Assembly (NCBI RefSeq): GCF_045037415.1
Contig: NZ_CP173438.1
DNA from: Escherichia coli
Lineage (GTDB): Bacteria > Pseudomonadota > Gammaproteobacteria > Enterobacterales > Enterobacteriaceae
Reading direction: 5' to 3' (one strand)
DNA length: 64,000 nucleotides
In this document: piece by piece, positions 1 through 45,171 of the stretch
How positions within the stretch are numbered: the first letter of the stretch is position 1
Layout: each line of letters starts with the position of its first letter
Translations under genes and position numbers: made by a program
Notes under the pieces: generated by a model
Database searches by the model: none
What the model saw: the letters and a program-made list of their open reading frames with translations, nothing else
What the model was told of the DNA's origin: nothing

Positions 1-550
1 CAAAATTGCCGGGATGATAATCACACCCAGCATCCAGCGCCATGCACCGGTGTAGCTGAAGGCGGTATCAGAAAGATAAGCACCGAGGATCCCAATAGTG
101 ATCATCAACTGATACATCGAGATCATACTGCCGCGAATTTTTTCCGGCGCAATTTCTGACAGGTACAGTGGTGCGGTATAAGAAGCCACACCCACCGCCA
201 GCCCCAGCAGAACGCGGGAAAGAATCAGTACTTCAACGTTTGGCGCAGCCGCAGAGAACAGTGAACCGGCAACAAACAGGATTGCGCCGATCATCAGGCT
301 CTTTTTGCGCCCGAGTTTAAAGGAGAGCCAGCCGCTGCCCACCGCACCGACTGCCGCACCGAACATCATGGAGCTTACGACCCATTCTTGCGTGTGCGAA
401 GTAATCTGGAATTCATCTGCAATAAACGGCAGTGCGCCAGCAATTACACCGATATCCAGGCCAAAGAGTAATCCCGCCAGAGCAGCAAGGAAGCAGACGA
501 AAAACGTCATTGCCTTGTTTGACCGCCCCTGTTTTTTAGCGTCAGGCATG
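1..550 (-). CDS. galP: Galactose:H+ symporter GalP, N-terminal part; gene continues past the window start
   Basis: Minus-strand ATG at 550 translates [42 protein letters not shown]..., an MFS sugar-porter N-terminus. No stop before the window edge, so it is missing from the ORF track. Confidence 0.88.
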
Positions 551-932
551 ATGCCCTCCAATATGGTTATTTTTTATTGTGAATTAAGATAGGTGAGTAC
601 GACGTAAAAAGATGTGAAGCAAATCACATCAGTGTAATCGCTTACACTAACATTTATCTTAGTTATGATTTAAGTACATGAAAATAATTGAGTTATATCA
701 TCATAGATTAAACGCTGTTATCTGCAATTAAGACTTTACTGAAAAGAAATGTAACAACTGTGAAAGCTGAATAATAATATGAAAATATTACAAATATTTG
801 GCTGGCGTGGTTGGTGTAATCGGTTTCAGTAGCGATGATAATTTGCGGTAAAACGTGTTCAGGAAGAATGATGTTATTGTGCGGGCAGCTTTTTGCCGGA
901 TGCGGCATGAACGCCTATCCACCGCGGTGAGG

Positions 933-962
933 TAAAAGAAAAAGGCCAGCGCGAGGCTGGCC
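933..962 (-). terminator. Rho-independent terminator downstream of metK
   Basis: GC hairpin ggccagcgcgaggctggcc with an adjacent A-run on the plus strand (T-run on the minus strand), just 3' of the metK stop. Confidence 0.6.
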
Positions 963-984
963 TTTAAAAGCAGGTGAAGAAAAA

Positions 985-2139
985 TTACTTCAGACCGGCA
1001 GCATCGCGCAGCAGCTGCGCTTTGTCGGTTTTTTCCCACGGGAAATGTTCGCGACCAAAGTGACCGTATGCTGCGGTTTCTTTGTAGATTGGGTGCAGCA
1101 GATCCAGCATCTGAATCAGACCGTATGGACGCAGGTCAAAGAACTCACGTACCAGCAGAGTCAGTTGTTCAGAAGGCACTTTCTCGGTACCGAAAGTTTC
1201 CACCATGATAGAGGTCGGTTCAGCCACGCCGATTGCGTAGGAAACCTGAATTTCACAACGATCGGCCAGGCCAGCAGCAACGATGTTTTTCGCGACATAA
1301 CGTGCTGCGTACGCTGCGGAACGGTCCACTTTTGATGGATCTTTACCAGAGAATGCACCACCACCGTGACGTGCCATGCCGCCGTAGGTATCAACGATGA
1401 TTTTACGACCAGTCAGACCGCAGTCACCCATCGGGCCACCGATAACAAAACGACCGGTCGGGTTGATGAAGAATTTGGTGGCAGAAGTCAGCCATTCAGC
1501 GGGCAGAATCGGCTTGATGATCTCTTCCATTACCGCTTCTTGCAGCGATTTCTGGTCGATTTCTTCAGAGTGCTGAGTGGAAAGCACGACAGCATCGATA
1601 CCAACGATTTTGCCGTCGTCATACTGGAAAGTCACCTGGCTTTTCGCGTCCGGGCGCAGCCACGGCAGAGTGCCGTTTTTACGCACTTCAGCCTGACGCT
1701 GTACCAGACGGTGTGCATAGGTGATAGGCGCTGGCATCAGCACGTCGGTTTCATTGGTTGCGTAGCCAAACATCAGACCCTGGTCACCCGCGCCCTGTTC
1801 CAGCGGATCGGCACGGTCAACGCCCTGGTTGATGTCAGGAGACTGTTTGCCGATGGCGCTCAGAACCGCACAGGAGTTAGCGTCAAAGCCCATGTCGGAA
1901 TGTACATAGCCAATTTCGCGAACGGTGTTACGGGTGATCTCTTCGATGTCTACCCAGGCGCTGGTGGTGATTTCGCCGCCAACTAAAACCATGCCGGTTT
2001 TTACGTAGGTTTCGCAAGCAACGCGTGCTTTCGGATCCTGTTCGAGGATCGCGTCTAAAACGGCATCAGAGATTTGGTCAGCAATTTTGTCAGGATGCCC
2101 TTCAGAGACGGACTCGGACGTAAAAAGGTGTTTTGCCAT
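985..2139 (-). CDS. metK: S-adenosylmethionine synthetase
   Basis: ORF 985..2151; start taken at [22 protein letters not shown]; 384 aa with the GGGAFSGKD motif. Confidence 0.96.
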
Positions 2140-2179
2140 ATTTAATATCACCTAAAGAGAATTTGGTTAGCTCAAACTG

Positions 2180-2446
2180 TTGTGTGGATTTTCTGTGGTA
2201 GCGGATCCTACCACGACTCTGCAGGTTAAAAACACTGGCAGTCTGAGTGTTAATCGGTATGGATGGATTAACATCTGGATGGCTATTTTAGGTCAGTTCT
2301 TCACCCAATTTCCACTTTTTTTTGAATCGTGTCTCATTCTGTTAAAAACGTGGCTGGAAATTTTTCCTGACAATGCTGGCATTCTGCGTATTTATCTTTT
2401 GCAATTTTCTGCCATTGTGGGGTATAAAACGCGGCGCGCGGCTTAA
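2180..2446 (+). CDS. Small hypothetical protein, possibly yqgD-like
   Basis: 88-aa ORF between metK and speA. Position and size resemble the K-12 small gene yqgD; no domain recognised. Confidence 0.3.
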
Positions 2447-2658
2447 ATAAAAAGCACACGACGTTTCTTTCGTGTTGCCACTTCCAGCCGGGTTGAAAAC
2501 AGAGTTTTGGCTTGTGGGTTCGTCTTAACAGGCGGCCGTGGAGGTGATACGAAATAATGAACCGTTGTCTGCTGCTTAACCTGTCTCACCGTTCTGGTGA
2601 AGATTCGTTCCCCGCACTCTGCATCTCTGCTTTGCATACCTGCCGATGTTATACCCAT
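2443..2658 (-). CDS. Small hypothetical protein, possibly yqgC-like
   Basis: 71-aa ORF; length and position match my memory of K-12 yqgC; weak coding evidence. Confidence 0.3.
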
Positions 2659-2793
2659 CTCGGCGCTTCTCAGGATTCAAGAGCTGGTTACAGCTACTGA
2701 GGACTGAACAAGGGCGCTCTTGTAAAAACAAGAGTTTTCTCGTGGTTTCGCCGAACTGTCACACTTACGTTCGGTTATGTGCTTAATAATGTT

Positions 2794-2925
2794 ATGAAAA
2801 AGAAACCGGTTGCGCAGTTGGAGCGTCAGCATTCACTGCTGGAAAATCCATGTGCTTATGGGTTGTTATCGCAGTTCCAGGCTGCGATAGTCGTTAACTG
2901 TTTTACACTTAATAAAATAATTTGA
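2794..2925 (+). CDS. yqgB: Small protein YqgB (43 aa) immediately upstream of speA
   Basis: ATG at 2794; translation [43 protein letters not shown]; stop 8 bp before the speA start. Confidence 0.6.
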
Positions 2926-2933
2926 GGTTCGCT

Positions 2934-4910
2934 ATGTCTGACGACATGTCTATGGGTTTGCCTTCGTCAGCGGGCGAACACGGTGTACTACGCTCCATGC
3001 AGGAGGTTGCAATGAGCTCCCAGGAAGCCAGCAAGATGCTGCGTACTTACAATATTGCCTGGTGGGGCAATAACTACTATGACGTTAACGAGCTGGGCCA
3101 CATCAGCGTGTGCCCGGACCCGGACGTCCCGGAAGCTCGCGTCGATCTCGCGCAGTTAGTGAAAACTCGTGAAGCACAGGGCCAGCGTCTGCCTGCACTG
3201 TTCTGTTTCCCGCAGATCCTGCAGCACCGTTTGCGTTCTATTAACGCCGCGTTCAAACGTGCGCGGGAATCCTACGGCTATAACGGCGATTACTTCCTCG
3301 TTTATCCGATCAAAGTTAACCAGCACCGCCGCGTGATTGAGTCCCTGATTCATTCGGGCGAACCGCTGGGCCTGGAAGCCGGTTCCAAAGCTGAGTTGAT
3401 GGCGGTGCTGGCACATGCTGGCATGACCCGTAGCGTCATCGTCTGCAACGGTTATAAGGACCGCGAATATATCCGTCTGGCATTAATTGGCGAGAAGATG
3501 GGCCACAAGGTCTATCTGGTCATTGAGAAGATGTCAGAAATTGCCATTGTGCTGGATGAAGCAGAACGTCTGAATGTCGTTCCTCGTCTGGGCGTGCGTG
3601 CACGTCTGGCTTCGCAGGGCTCCGGTAAATGGCAGTCCTCCGGCGGGGAAAAATCGAAGTTCGGCCTGGCGGCGACTCAGGTACTGCAACTGGTTGAAAC
3701 CCTGCGTGAAGCCGGGCGTCTCGACAGCCTGCAACTGCTGCACTTCCACCTCGGTTCGCAGATGGCGAATATTCGCGATATCGCGACAGGCGTTCGTGAA
3801 TCCGCGCGTTTCTATGTTGAGCTGCACAAGCTGGGCGTCAATATTCAGTGCTTCGACGTCGGCGGCGGTCTGGGCGTGGACTATGAAGGCACCCGTTCGC
3901 AGTCCGACTGTTCGGTGAACTACGGCCTCAATGAATACGCCAACAACATCATCTGGGCGATTGGTGATGCGTGTGAAGAAAATGGTCTGCCACATCCGAC
4001 GGTAATCACCGAATCGGGTCGTGCGGTGACTGCGCATCACACCGTGCTGGTGTCGAATATCATCGGCGTGGAACGTAACGAATACACGGTGCCGACCGCG
4101 CCTGCAGAAGACGCACCGCGCGCCCTGCAAAGCATGTGGGAAACCTGGCAGGAAATGCACGAACCGGGAACTCGCCGTTCTCTGCGTGAATGGTTACACG
4201 ACAGCCAGATGGATCTGCACGATATTCATATCGGCTACTCTTCCGGCACCTTTAGCCTGCAAGAACGCGCATGGGCTGAGCAGCTTTATTTGAGCATGTG
4301 CCATGAAGTGCAAAAGCAGCTGGATCCGCAAAACCGTGCTCATCGTCCGATTATCGACGAGCTGCAGGAACGTATGGCGGACAAAATGTACGTCAACTTC
4401 TCGCTGTTCCAGTCGATGCCGGATGCGTGGGGGATCGACCAGTTGTTCCCGGTTCTGCCGCTGGAAGGGCTGGATCAAGTGCCGGAACGCCGCGCTGTGC
4501 TGTTGGATATTACCTGTGACTCAGACGGTGCTATCGACCACTATATTGATGGTGACGGTATTGCCACGACAATGCCTATGCCGGAGTACGATCCGGAGAA
4601 TCCGCCGATGCTCGGTTTCTTTATGGTCGGCGCATATCAGGAGATCCTTGGCAACATGCACAACCTGTTCGGTGATACCGAAGCGGTTGACGTGTTCGTC
4701 TTCCCTGATGGTAGCGTAGAGGTAGAACTGTCTGACGAAGGCGATACCGTGGCGGACATGCTGCAATATGTGCAGCTCGATCCGAAAACGCTGTTAACTC
4801 AGTTCCGCGATCAGGTGAAGAAAACCGATCTTGATGCTGAACTGCAACAACAGTTCCTTGAAGAGTTCGAGGCAGGTTTGTACGGTTATACCTATCTTGA
4901 AGATGAATAA
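2934..4910 (+). CDS. speA: Biosynthetic arginine decarboxylase (PLP-dependent)
   Basis: 658-aa frame from [49 protein letters not shown]; the ORF track starts 4 codons upstream. Confidence 0.95.
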
Positions 4911-6874: not shown

Positions 6875-7265
<391 letters not shown>

Positions 7266-10300: not shown

Positions 10301-10363
10301 TCGGTAAGATGCTTTGTGAGAAGGGCCGCAAATGCGGCCCTTCAGATTGTTGGCAAAGTGCGC

Positions 10364-10457
10364 GTTGTTTATGCCGGATGCGGCGTGAACGCCTTATCCG
10401 TCCTACAAGATTTTGCAAATTCAACATATTGCAGCCTGATAAGCGTAGCGCATCAGG
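10364..10457. repeat. REP palindromic units in the tktA 3' flank
   Basis: gccggatgcggcgtgaacgccttatccgtcctac and gcctgataagcgtagcgcatcaggc palindromes. Confidence 0.8.
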
Positions 10458-10483
10458 CAGTTTTGTCTTTGCTATCAGTCTCA

Positions 10484-10508
10484 AGGGCCGCGAAAGCGGC
10501 CTTTTTTT
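10484..10508 (+). terminator. Rho-independent terminator (tktA side), overlapping the stop codon of the SPFH gene
   Basis: ggccgcgaaagcggcc hairpin followed by ttttttt. Confidence 0.6.
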
Positions 10509-40671: not shown

Positions 40672-43545
40672 ATGACACAGACGTTAAGCCAGCTTGAAAA
40701 CAGCGGCGCTTTTATTGAACGCCATATCGGACCGGACGCCGCGCAACAGCAAGAAATGCTGAATGCCGTTGGCGCACAATCGTTAAACGCGCTGACCGGC
40801 CAGATTGTGCCGAAAGATATTCAGCTTGCGACTCCGCCGCAGGTTGGCGCACCGGCGACCGAATACGCCGCACTGGCAGAACTCAAGGCTATTGCCAGTC
40901 GCAATAAACGCTTCACGTCTTACATCGGCATGGGTTACACCGCCGTGCAGCTACCGCCGGTTATCCTGCGTAACATGCTGGAAAATCCGGGCTGGTATAC
41001 CGCGTATACTCCGTATCAACCTGAAGTCTCCCAGGGCCGCCTTGAAGCACTGCTCAACTTCCAGCAGGTAACGCTGGATTTAACCGGGCTGGATATGGCC
41101 TCTGCTTCTCTTCTTGACGAAGCCACCGCTGCCGCCGAAGCAATGGCGATGGCGAAACGCGTCAGCAAACTGAAAAATGCCAACCGCTTCTTTGTTGCTT
41201 CTGACGTTCATCCGCAAACGCTGGATGTGGTCCGTACTCGTGCCGAAACCTTTGGTTTTGAAGTGATTGTCGATGATGCGCAAAAAGTGCTCGACCATCA
41301 GGACGTCTTCGGCGCGCTGTTACAGCAGGTCGGCACTACTGGTGAAATTCACGACTACACTGCGCTTATTAGCGAACTGAAATCACGCAAAATTGTGGTC
41401 AGCGTTGCCGCCGATATTATGGCGCTGGTGCTGTTAACTGCGCCAGGTAAACAGGGCGCGGATATTGTTTTTGGTTCGGCGCAACGCTTTGGCGTACCGA
41501 TGGGCTACGGTGGCCCACACGCGGCATTCTTTGCGGCGAAAGACGAATACAAACGCTCAATGCCGGGCCGTATTATCGGTGTATCGAAAGATGCAGCTGG
41601 CAACACCGCTCTGCGCATGGCGATGCAGACTCGTGAGCAACATATTCGTCGTGAAAAAGCGAACTCCAACATTTGTACATCCCAGGTCTTGCTGGCAAAC
41701 ATTGCCAGTCTGTATGCCGTTTACCACGGTCCGGTTGGCCTGAAACGTATCGCTAACCGCATCCACCGTCTGACCGATATCCTGGCGGCGGGCCTGCAAC
41801 AAAAAGGTCTGAAGCTGCGCCATGCGCACTATTTCGATACTTTGTGTGTGGAAGTGGCCGACAAAGCGGGCGTGCTGGCGCGTGCCGAAGCGGCTGAAAT
41901 CAACCTGCGTAGCGATATTCTGAACGCGGTTGGGATCACCCTTGATGAAACCACTACGCGCGAAAACGTGATGCAGCTTTTCAGCGTGCTGTTGGGCGAT
42001 AACCACGGGCTGGACATCGACACACTGGACAAAGACGTGGCTCACGACAGTCGCTCTATTCAGGCTGCGATGCTGCGCGACGACGAAATCCTCACCCATC
42101 CGGTGTTTAATCGCTACCACAGCGAAACCGAAATGATGCGCTATATGCACTCGCTGGAGCGTAAAGATCTGGCGCTGAATCAGGCGATGATCCCGCTGGG
42201 TTCCTGCACCATGAAACTGAACGCCGCCGCCGAGATGATCCCGATCACCTGGCCGGAATTTGCCGAACTGCACCCGTTCTGCCCGCCGGAACAGGCTGAA
42301 GGTTATCAGCAGATGATCGCGCAGCTGGCTGAGTGGCTGGTGAAACTGACCGGTTACGACGCCGTTTGTATGCAGCCGAACTCTGGCGCACAGGGCGAAT
42401 ACGCGGGCCTGCTGGCGATTCGTCATTATCATGAAAGCCGCAACGAAGGGCATCGCGATATCTGCCTGATCCCGGCTTCTGCGCACGGCACTAACCCGGC
42501 TTCCGCGCATATGGCAGGAATGCAGGTGGTGGTTGTGGCGTGTGATAAAAACGGCAACATCGATCTGACTGATCTGCGCGCGAAAGCCGAACAGGCGGGC
42601 GATAACCTCTCCTGTATCATGGTGACCTATCCTTCCACCCACGGCGTGTATGAAGAAACGATCCGTGAAGTGTGTGAAGTCGTGCATCAGTTCGGCGGTC
42701 AGGTTTACCTTGATGGCGCGAACATGAACGCTCAGGTTGGCATCACCTCGCCGGGCTTTATTGGTGCGGACGTTTCCCACCTTAACCTGCATAAAACTTT
42801 CTGCATTCCGCATGGCGGTGGTGGTCCGGGTATGGGACCGATCGGTGTGAAAGCGCATCTGGCTCCGTTTGTACCGGGTCATAGCGTGGTGCAAATCGAA
42901 GGCATGTTAATCCGTCAGGGCGCGGTTTCTGCGGCACCGTTCGGTAGTGCCTCTATCCTGCCAATCAGCTGGATGTACATCCGCATGATGGGCGCAGAAG
43001 GGCTGAAAAAAGCAAGCCAGGTGGCAATTCTTAACGCCAACTATATTGCCAGCCGTCTGCAGGATGCCTTCCCGGTGCTGTATACCGGTCGCGACGGTCG
43101 CGTGGCGCACGAATGTATTCTCGATATTCGCCCGCTGAAAGAAGAAACCGGCATCAGCGAGCTGGATATTGCCAAGCGCCTGATCGACTACGGTTTCCAC
43201 GCGCCGACCATGTCGTTCCCGGTGGCGGGTACGCTGATGGTTGAACCGACTGAATCTGAAAGCAAAGTGGAACTGGATCGCTTTATCGATGCGATGCTGG
43301 CTATCCGCGCAGAAATTGACCAGGTGAAAGCCGGTGTCTGGCCGCTGGAAGATAACCCGCTGGTGAACGCGCCGCACATTCAGAGCGAACTGGTCGCCGA
43401 GTGGGCGCATCCGTACAGTCGTGAAGTTGCAGTATTCCCGGCAGGTGTGGCAGACAAATACTGGCCGACCGTGAAACGTCTGGATGATGTTTACGGCGAC
43501 CGTAACCTGTTCTGCTCCTGCGTACCGATTAGCGAATACCAGTAA
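40672..43545 (+). CDS. gcvP: Glycine dehydrogenase (decarboxylating), P protein
   Basis: 957 aa, [47 protein letters not shown]. Confidence 0.96.
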
Positions 43546-43567
43546 TTTACTGATTCGACTATCTTCT

Positions 43568-43590
43568 AAAGGCGCTTCGGCGCCTTTTTC
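43568..43590 (+). terminator. Rho-independent terminator after gcvP
   Basis: aaaggcgcttcggcgccttt hairpin followed by ttt. Confidence 0.6.
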
Positions 43591-43710
43591 GCTTGTTAAT
43601 AAAGTGCGCTTTGTGTGTTTCGGTTGAGGCGTAATATAAAATATTGCGAGCTCAATATATTAAAAGAGTGCCAGGCCTGATGAGCGGAGCACATCAGGCA
43701 CATCGGCTAA

Positions 43711-45171
<1,461 letters not shown>

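What the first reader, a model, noticed from the sequence alone, without database searches (positions are those of the whole stretch)
43546..43710. Only 165 bp separate convergent gcvP and bglA; the ygfF gene expected here appears absent
As I recall the K-12 order (bglA b2901, ygfF b2902, gcvP b2903), a short-chain dehydrogenase gene of about 750 bp lies between bglA and gcvP. Here the gap holds only a terminator hairpin (43568..43590) and a second palindrome (gcctgatg...catcaggc, 43674..43699). This is a clean gene-scale deletion, or never-acquired state, relative to K-12.
Basis: partly seen in the sequence, partly recalled or inferred. Interest (0 to 1): 0.25.

Follow-up and report, generated by a model that had tools for sequence, protein, structure and literature searches.

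The report
Common ygfF-less gcvP–bglA junction
The small dehydrogenase gene ygfF that K-12 carries between gcvP and bglA really is missing here, but this is an old and very common E. coli variant (about 43% of complete genomes) in which a decayed repeat element fills the gap, so it is ordinary.

Summary
gcvP ends at 43545 and bglA ends at 43711 on the opposite strand, 165 bp apart, with no ygfF. K-12 has a 744-bp SDR gene, ygfF, there.

It is not a clean deletion relative to K-12. About 120 bp here replace about 1,020 unrelated bp in K-12. After the conserved gcvP terminator (43568-43589), the rest of the gap is a decayed BIME-1 repeat. Its parts are a flank motif, half of a Y-REP, the IHF-type linker and a Z-REP.

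"Never acquired" is refuted. The gcvP-ygfF-bglA order holds in Citrobacter, Enterobacter, Pseudescherichia, Phytobacter, Pluralibacter, Erwinia and Pantoea, so this is a loss.

The loss is old and common:
- ygfF allele: 3,057 of 5,426 complete E. coli genomes.
- Short allele: 2,349 genomes, with copies only 84-100% identical to the window's.
- Third allele: 17 genomes, plus E. albertii. It carries an outer-membrane "transporter" gene behind the same BIME.

Flanking-gene trees mix the allele classes, which indicates an old polymorphism shuffled by recombination.

The likely consequence is loss of a glucose 1-dehydrogenase-type SDR. Interest is low and the state is already visible in public annotations.

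The parts
40672..43545 (+). gcvP (glycine dehydrogenase, last gene of gcvTHP)
   Evidence: TIGR00461 equivalog, 1838 bits; annotated gcvP in the identical RefSeq record
43568..43589 (+). gcvP intrinsic terminator: AAAGGCGC-UUCG-GCGCCUUU plus UU
   Evidence: dG -12.7 kcal/mol, z -3.16. The same hairpin sequence is conserved after gcvP in K-12, Citrobacter and Phytobacter, and with one compensated base-pair change (AAGGGCGC...GCGCCC) in Enterobacter sp. Bisph1 and Pseudocitrobacter. Homology with K-12 ends here. The simple terminator scan did not call it.
43592..43618 (+). Left flank motif of the BIME-1 (CTTGTTAATAAAGTGCGCTTTGTGTGT)
   Evidence: Aligns to the flank of the canonical BIME-1 at window 10345-10371 (GATTGTTGGCAAAGTGCGCGTTGTTTAT). 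Shared with the transporter allele but not with K-12.
43619..43634 (+). 5' half of a Y-type REP (TTCGGTTGAGGCGTAA); the 3' half is deleted (~15 bp)
   Evidence: Aligns to GCCGGATGCGGCGTGA of the Y-REP at window 10373-10406. The transporter allele keeps a longer copy.
43635..43666 (+). Decayed BIME-1 central linker (L motif); the IHF-type core TCAATATATTA lies at 43652-43662
   Evidence: Aligns to CAAGATTTTGCAAATTCAACATATTGCAG at window 10404-10434. With the Z-REP masked, the left part scores 26.3 against 8.1 +/- 1.5 for shuffles, 0 of 2000 reaching it. IHF binding itself was not tested.
43670..43701 (.). Z-type REP (core palindrome 43675-43699), 11 nt downstream of the bglA stop on the bglA mRNA
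   Evidence: 22 of 25 bases identical to the Z-REP at window 10434-10458; the O157 ortholog matches 24 of 25. dG -20.4 kcal/mol, z -3.76 on the minus strand. An inverted REP occupies the same position next to the bglA stop in Citrobacter and Pseudescherichia.
43711..45144 (-). bglA (6-phospho-beta-glucosidase A); ends ...E-N-L-stop
   Evidence: NF011589, 1147 bits. RefSeq annotates 1,434 nt in the identical strain SA186. The C-terminal ENL/EKL and TAA/TGA variants are ordinary polymorphism.

Best explanation
The window carries the 'short' allele of the gcvP|bglA junction. In the ancestor of the Enterobacteriaceae, ygfF (an SDR with glucose 1-dehydrogenase activity in vitro) sat directly behind the gcvP terminator and ahead of REP elements at the 3' end of bglA. 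In one Escherichia lineage ygfF was lost. The whole space between the gcvP terminator and the bglA stop is now a single BIME-1 repeat (flank, Y-REP, IHF-type linker, Z-REP) that has since decayed. This allele is old. It has diversified to 84-100% identity and has been moved between lineages by homologous recombination through the conserved flanking genes. It now coexists in E. coli with the ygfF allele and with a rare third allele that has an outer-membrane channel gene behind the same BIME. Functionally, the spacer is the two 3' ends of convergent transcription units. The conserved UUCG-loop hairpin with its U-run terminates gcvTHP. The Z-REP hairpin 11 nt past the bglA stop most likely serves as the bglA 3'-end structure, acting as an exonuclease barrier or terminator. 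The steps that are shown: absence of ygfF, its ancestral presence, the BIME identity of the spacer, the allele frequencies, and the non-monophyly of the allele classes. The steps that are inferred: the mechanism of the loss (probably REP-associated recombination) and the roles of the hairpins.
For: Absence of ygfF and the anatomy of the gap. K-12 has ygfF, and homology breaks at 43589 and at the bglA stop. Ancestral synteny: YgfF lies between GcvP and BglA in Citrobacter, Pseudocitrobacter, Enterobacter, Pseudescherichia, Phytobacter, Siccibacter, Pluralibacter, Erwinia psidii and Pantoea. In Citrobacter the ygfF start lies about 20 nt after the same terminator hairpin. BIME identity: the spacer aligns end to end with the canonical BIME-1 at window 10342-10466. 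The Z-REP matches 22 of 25 bases, and the remainder scores 26.3 against 8.1 +/- 1.5 for shuffles (0 of 2000). Frequencies: ygfF in 3,057, the short spacer in 2,349 and the transporter allele in 17 of 5,426 complete genomes. Age: 423 genomes have a spacer only 80-90% identical, and the variants are aligned. A single loss junction: the short and transporter alleles share the BIME immediately after the terminator. Recombination: in trees of both flanks, K-12 (ygfF) nests among short-allele strains, and short-allele D10/19KM1831 group with transporter-allele E7-1N7. Vertical descent of ygfF: the ratio of ygfF divergence to flank divergence is about 1.8-1.9 both within E. coli (6.2% vs ~3.3%) and to Citrobacter (25.5% vs ~13.5%). 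YgfF activity: PMC10645960 and PMC12506659.
Against: No ygfF remnant or deletion scar is recognisable, so the loss event itself cannot be reconstructed. The closest outgroups (E. fergusonii, Escherichia clades II-V, Salmonella) were not among the 80 loci returned, and the E. albertii contig breaks off inside the transporter gene, so its left junction was not seen. Mutual exclusivity of the alleles is inferred from counts that add up to 5,423 of 5,426, not from a per-genome table. The hairpin functions are inferred from sequence only, and the simple terminator scan called neither hairpin.
Confidence: 0.85

Rival explanations
1. The short allele is derived from the transporter allele. On this view ygfF was first replaced by a BIME plus a Phenol_MetA_deg outer-membrane gene cassette, the state seen in E. 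albertii and the divergent Escherichia L004. The ~1.2-kb cassette was later deleted, leaving the 165-bp gap. This is a sub-variant of the best explanation that differs only in the order of events.
For: The transporter allele occurs in the most divergent Escherichia sampled: L004, whose flanks differ 4.4-6% from all E. coli, and E. albertii. It carries the less decayed Y-REP and linker of the shared BIME.
Against: Each allele has private decay. The short allele lacks ~15 bp of the Y-REP, while the transporter allele has a truncated Z-REP that the short allele keeps intact. So neither present form is the parent of the other. No remnant of the cassette is visible in the short allele. The apparent TAATTACAAAT microhomology was a chance match.
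Confidence: 0.4
2. Never-acquired state: the ancestor of Escherichia had no ygfF at this site, and K-12-like lineages gained it by horizontal transfer.
For: The short and transporter alleles occur in deep Escherichia lineages, including E. albertii, L004, and strains I recall as phylogroup B2 and E.
Against: The gcvP-ygfF-bglA order is shared by at least 9 other genera in two families. E. coli ygfF diverges from Citrobacter ygfF in the same proportion to the flanks as the two E. coli ygfF alleles diverge from each other. The conserved gcvP terminator directly precedes ygfF in Citrobacter and in the N96-type E. coli allele.
Confidence: 0.05
3. Recent strain-specific deletion or an assembly artefact in this window.
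For: None beyond the bare absence of the gene.
Against: 2,349 complete genomes carry the same spacer, 1,268 of them at 99% identity or more, and divergent variants exist at 84-87%. The junction is 100% identical to several independent complete genomes.
Confidence: 0.01
4. ygfF has been relocated elsewhere in the genome rather than lost.
For: Only 64 kb of this genome can be inspected directly.
Against: There is no YgfF match in the window. Megablast with ygfF finds it in 3,057 genomes with a median of one place each, and the three allele counts sum to 5,423 of 5,426, which leaves no room for short-allele genomes with a second-site ygfF.
Confidence: 0.02

Closest known systems
E. coli K-12 bglA-ygfF-gcvP locus
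   Same: Same flanking genes in the same convergent orientation, the same gcvP terminator hairpin, and flanks 96-98% identical.
   Different: K-12 has ~1,020 bp here: a G-rich inverted-repeat element, ygfF, and a small REP-like hairpin. The window has ~120 bp of unrelated BIME sequence instead.
BIME-1 / RIP (RIB) elements: Y-REP, L linker with IHF site, inverted Z-REP (as I recall from Gilson, Bachellier and Hofnung, and from Oppenheim and Boccard)
   Same: Same order and orientation of flank motif, Y-REP, linker and Z-REP as the canonical copy at window 10342-10466, and the same location directly after a terminator hairpin.
   Different: Decayed: the 3' half of the Y-REP is missing and there are several substitutions in the linker and Z-REP. 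Binding of IHF or gyrase was not tested.
Transporter allele of the same junction (E. coli E7-1N7, Escherichia L004, E. albertii NBRC 107761)
   Same: Same BIME directly after the gcvP terminator, and no ygfF.
   Different: It carries about 300 bp of AT-rich DNA, a 297/298-aa signal-peptide protein (Pfam PF13557 Phenol_MetA_deg; PGAP name 'transporter') and its own hairpin before the bglA stop.
REP hairpins as mRNA 3'-end stabilisers, and as translation modulators when within ~15 nt of a stop codon (Liang, Rudd and Deutscher 2015, from my own knowledge; not found in the paper library)
   Same: The Z-REP stem starts 11 nt after the bglA stop codon on the bglA mRNA.
   Different: There are no expression data, so the effect on bglA is inference only.

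Membership tests
ygfF / SDR63C glucose 1-dehydrogenase gene | An ORF encoding a ~247-aa SDR orthologous to K-12 YgfF between gcvP and bglA | tested here: not met
   tblastn with K-12 YgfF gives no hit in the window. No ORF of 40 aa or more lies wholly within the 165-bp gap; the only one touching it, 43484-43627 (+), overlaps the end of gcvP.
Clean deletion relative to K-12 | Sequence on both sides of the breakpoint collinear with K-12, with no allele-specific DNA in between | tested here: not met
   About 120 bp (43590-43710) have no counterpart in K-12's ~1,020 bp. They align to a BIME-1 instead.
Loss of an ancestral gene (as opposed to never acquired) | The gene is present at the orthologous site in outgroup taxa | tested here: met
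   YgfF lies between GcvP and BglA in at least 9 genera, including Erwinia and Pantoea. Its divergence is proportional to that of the flanks.
Intrinsic (Rho-independent) terminator, 43568-43589 | GC-rich stem-loop immediately followed by a U-run, at the 3' end of an operon | tested here: met
   An 8-bp stem with a UUCG loop, and 5 consecutive U of which 3 are paired; dG -12.7, z -3.2. It starts 22 nt after the gcvP stop and is conserved across genera. The simple scan missed it, probably because the A-U pairs use up part of the U-run (my inference). Termination activity was not tested.
REP (repetitive extragenic palindrome), Z type, 43670-43701 | An imperfect palindrome with the GCCTGATG...CATCAGGC consensus, extragenic, and multi-copy in the genome | tested here: met
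   22 of 25 bases identical to the copy at 10434-10458; pattern matches expected by chance 0.00. It is extragenic. Orthologs in other strains are closer to the consensus.
BIME-1 / RIP | Y-REP and inverted Z-REP separated by the ~30-bp L linker, with flanking motifs | tested here: met
   The spacer is collinear with the canonical BIME-1 at 10342-10466, and the non-Z part is significant against 2,000 shuffles. The copy is degenerate, with the 3' half of the Y-REP deleted.
BIME-1 / RIP | IHF binding to the L linker | not testable with these tools
   The core TCAANNNNTTR is retained at 43652-43662 (read directly from the sequence). The search for the 16-nt linker consensus with up to 3 mismatches did not return this copy.

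The most novel reading that the evidence does not exclude
The gcvP|bglA junction could be a three-state cassette site (ygfF, empty BIME, or an outer-membrane Phenol_MetA_deg channel) whose alleles are exchanged across Escherichia species. On this reading the loss or replacement of ygfF was mediated by the REP/BIME machinery (RAYT or REP-REP recombination), and the alleles are kept at intermediate frequency by selection rather than by drift.
Probability: 0.12. Interest if true: 0.35.

Novelty: already known. Interest (0 to 1): 0.1.

Why it matters
It matters very little beyond bookkeeping. ygfF is an accessory gene rather than a core gene of E. coli, present in 56% of complete genomes. K-12-based expectations about gene order therefore fail for strains like this one. 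YgfF has glucose 1-dehydrogenase activity in vitro (PMC10645960), so strains with the short allele lack that activity from this locus, and no phenotype is known. The locus is a tidy small example of an old presence/absence polymorphism at a REP-rich junction that recombination has shuffled. It could serve as a lineage marker.

Tried and rejected
1. Deletion by microhomology out of the transporter allele. A TAATTACAAAT / TTCTC match between the window junction and the region upstream of the transporter gene in L004 looked promising. I rejected it because the other short-allele variants differ exactly there, and L086 has the K-12-type bglA end.

2. 'TTAATAAAG' as a remnant of the ygfF stop region. 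I dropped this once the same motif turned out to be the flank of a canonical BIME-1 elsewhere in the window.

3. The breakpoint lying inside the last two bglA codons. I rejected it: ENL/EKL and TAA/TGA are ordinary polymorphism, and the ENL end is shared with Citrobacter.

4. HH97 (L085) as an independent partial ygfF deletion. The region reads like scrambled low-quality assembly, so I disregarded it.

5. The Rfam scan of 43300-44000 gave no match at E <= 1.

6. The consensus promoter/terminator scan found nothing.

7. A strict local alignment of the spacer to the BIME found only the Z-REP. Permissive scoring was needed to recover the rest.

8. A literature search for the REP-near-stop-codon paper did not find it. 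The 13 listed titles and abstracts of the 15 papers that mention ygfF do not address the polymorphism.

9. Phylogroup typing of the hit genomes was not feasible with these tools. The phylogroups I give for named strains are from my own knowledge.

Full report
**1. Observation**

The 957-aa ORF at 40672-43545 (+) is GcvP (TIGR00461, 1838 bits). The ORF ending at 43711 on the minus strand is the 6-phospho-beta-glucosidase BglA (NF011589, 1147 bits). Upstream lie gcvT and gcvH. Beyond bglA lie yqfB, trhA and ygfZ. The two convergent stop codons are separated by 43546-43710, which is 165 bp.

tblastn with K-12 YgfF finds nothing in the whole window.

The first hairpin is AAAGGCGC-UUCG-GCGCCUUU at 43568-43587, followed by UU (dG -12.7 kcal/mol, z = -3.2). 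The second palindrome is GCCTGATG...CATCAGGC at 43675-43699. Its extended form on the bglA strand has dG -20.4 kcal/mol, z = -3.8.

**2. Not a clean deletion relative to K-12**

The window and K-12 align up to 43589, the end of the gcvP terminator, and again from the bglA stop. In between, about 120 bp in the window face about 1,020 bp in K-12 with no credible alignment. The K-12 segment consists of:
- a G-rich inverted-repeat element, listed as HPGQ 32/33 in PMC5100583;
- ygfF;
- a small REP-like hairpin.

I first thought the break entered the last two bglA codons (ENL-stop here, EKL-stop in K-12). Other short-allele strains carry either ending, and Citrobacter has the ENL form, so this is ordinary polymorphism.

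**3. What the 120 bp are**

The palindrome at 43675-43699 matches a second copy at window 10434-10458 in 22 of 25 bases, with a chance expectation of 0.00. That second copy is the Z-REP of a textbook BIME-1 at about 10342-10466. The BIME-1 has a flank AGATTGTTGGCAAAGTGCGCGTTGTTTAT, a Y-REP (one mismatch to consensus), a linker AATTCAACATATTGCA and a Z-REP, and it sits directly after a terminator hairpin.

The whole spacer is collinear with that element:

| Part | Window coordinates |
|---|---|
| Flank motif | 43592-43618 |
| 5' half of the Y-REP (about 15 bp of the 3' half missing) | 43619-43634 |
| Linker, retaining the core TCAATATATTA | 43635-43666 |
| Z-REP | 43670-43701 |

With the Z-REP masked, the remainder scores 26.3 against 8.1 +/- 1.5 for 2,000 shuffles, and none reaches the observed value.

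The gap therefore reads: gcvP terminator, 2 nt, a decayed BIME-1, 9 nt, bglA stop. No ygfF remnant is recognisable. Rfam has no match and the simple promoter/terminator scan calls nothing.

**4. Loss, not never-acquired**

A scan of species-representative genomes with BglA, followed by tblastn, shows GcvP-YgfF-BglA in the same arrangement in Citrobacter, Pseudocitrobacter, Enterobacter, Pseudescherichia, Phytobacter, Siccibacter and Pluralibacter. With extra genes inserted it also holds in Cedecea and some Enterobacter. It extends to Erwinia psidii and three Pantoea.

In Citrobacter the same terminator hairpin is followed after about 20 nt by the ygfF start codon, and REPs fill the ygfF-bglA spacer, ending in AATTACAGATTCTCGCC exactly as in short-allele E. 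coli O157.

ygfF evolves about 1.8-1.9 times faster than its flanks at both depths:

| Comparison | ygfF difference | Flank difference |
|---|---|---|
| K-12 type vs N96 type (within E. coli) | 6.2% | about 3.3% |
| K-12 vs Citrobacter youngae | 25.5% | about 13.5% |

This is what vertical descent predicts and gives no hint of a foreign re-acquisition.

**5. Population picture**

Allele counts among 5,426 complete E. coli genomes (5,425 contain the flanks):

| Allele | Genomes | Source |
|---|---|---|
| ygfF | 3,057 | |
| Short spacer | 2,349 | |
| Third allele | 17 | |
| Total | 5,423 | |

- **ygfF allele.** 2,217 copies are at least 99% identical to K-12, and 108 are only 90-95% identical.
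- **Short spacer.** 1,268 copies are at least 99% identical to the window, 657 are 95-99%, and 423 are only 80-90%.
- **Third allele.** The BIME is followed by about 300 bp of AT-rich DNA and a 297/298-aa signal-peptide protein (PGAP name 'transporter'; Pfam PF13557 Phenol_MetA_deg, E = 1.4e-13). The same gene abuts bglA in E. albertii NBRC 107761 and in a divergent Escherichia labelled E. coli (L004, 4.4-6% flank divergence).

Named strains with the short allele include E2348/69, APEC O1, ATCC 25922, an O6:K2:H1 strain and O157:H7. K-12 derivatives and O111:H8 and O121 strains have ygfF. From my own knowledge these correspond to phylogroups B2 and E versus A and B1.

**6. History**

The short and transporter alleles share the BIME immediately after the terminator. 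Short-allele genomes match L004 over bases 1-92 after the gcvP stop, whereas ygfF genomes match only bases 1-45 (alignment). They therefore descend from one ygfF-loss junction.

Each has private decay. The short allele has lost part of the Y-REP, and the transporter allele has a truncated Z-REP. So neither is the direct parent of the other. Whether the cassette was inserted into the short allele or deleted from a transporter-type ancestor is unresolved.

Neighbour-joining trees of 1,400 bp of each flank do not group strains by allele. K-12 (ygfF) nests with O157, TB06052 and 95-3192 (all short). D10 and 19KM1831 (short) group with E7-1N7 (transporter). Strain 95-3192 combines flanks like TB06052 with a spacer like D10. 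This is the signature of an old polymorphism redistributed by homologous recombination through gcvP and bglA.

**7. How it works (inference)**

The spacer is simply the pair of 3' ends of two convergent transcription units. The UUCG-loop terminator is conserved across genera and ends gcvTHP. A REP hairpin next to the bglA stop is also a conserved feature of the locus in other genera. Here it begins 11 nt after the stop codon.

REP hairpins are known to protect upstream mRNA from 3' exonucleases and, when within about 15 nt of a stop codon, to lower translation. Both points are from my own knowledge, and the relevant paper was not found in the library. None of this was tested.

The gene that is missing encodes an SDR with glucose 1-dehydrogenase activity in vitro (PMC10645960, accepted in PMC12506659). 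The mechanism of its loss is unknown. REP-associated recombination is plausible because REP/BIME elements flank ygfF in the N96-type allele and in the outgroups, but no scar supports it.

**8. Verdict**

It is a loss, but an ancient, frequent and publicly annotated allele, and relative to K-12 it is a replacement by a decayed BIME rather than a clean excision. The finding is ordinary, and I score interest at about 0.1.

Noticed in passing
L084:1958-2851 (+); L004:7488-8384 (-); L005:1-~2650 region next to bglA: A third allele of the junction. A 297/298-aa signal-peptide protein (PGAP name 'transporter', Pfam PF13557 Phenol_MetA_deg) with an AT-rich upstream region and its own hairpin replaces ygfF. 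It occurs in 17 of 5,426 E. coli genomes, in a divergent Escherichia (L004) and in E. albertii.
   Followed up: partly
L003:4638-5917: An IS621 (IS110 family) is inserted in strain 2017-02-2CC between gcvP and ygfF, exactly inside a Z-REP at ATCAGGC|CT|AC, with CT on both sides. This matches the REP target I recall for this bridge-RNA recombinase. The window's own Z-REP reads ATCAGGCCTGG on the minus strand, a near-target.
   Followed up: partly
L091:1568-1800: The N96-type ygfF allele is 93.8% identical to K-12 ygfF, and 108 genomes fall in the 90-95% band. It has an intact BIME-1, in the opposite orientation to the window's, bracketed by two copies of the gcvP terminator hairpin upstream of ygfF. 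This suggests the BIME arrived together with a duplication of the hairpin.
   Followed up: no
L001:2125-2230; also L009, L016, L017 and L038 between ygfF and bglA: K-12 has a G-rich inverted-repeat element (GGGAGAGGGTTAGGGTGAGGGG ... CCCTCACCCCGGCCCTCTCCC) between gcvP and ygfF, listed as HPGQ 32/33 in PMC5100583. Similar elements sit on the other side of ygfF in several other genera.
   Followed up: partly
L016:7475-7684; L017:7485-8134: Independent decay of ygfF in other lineages. In Enterobacter sp. Bisph1 only residues 186-247 of YgfF are detectable in a 290-bp gap. In a soil MAG tblastn covers only residues 99-247, although the start of the gene is still readable.
   Followed up: no
L085:1766-2601: In E. 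coli HH97 the ygfF region is present in length but scrambled, with homopolymer-rich low-identity sequence. This is most likely assembly or basecalling noise rather than biology.
   Followed up: partly
window 10320-10500 and 6882-7141: There is a canonical BIME-1 (Y-REP, L linker, Z-REP) between two terminator-like hairpins at 10320-10500. Three tandem Y-REPs lie at 113-bp spacing at 6882-7141.
   Followed up: partly
window 43711-43719: The bglA C-terminus and stop codon are polymorphic among strains (E-N-L or E-K-L; TAA or TGA). The ENL/TAA form is shared with Citrobacter and Pseudescherichia.
   Followed up: yes
(E. coli genomes): One copy of the short-allele junction is reported on a record classed as a plasmid. 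It was not inspected and may be a mis-binned chromosome fragment.
   Followed up: no
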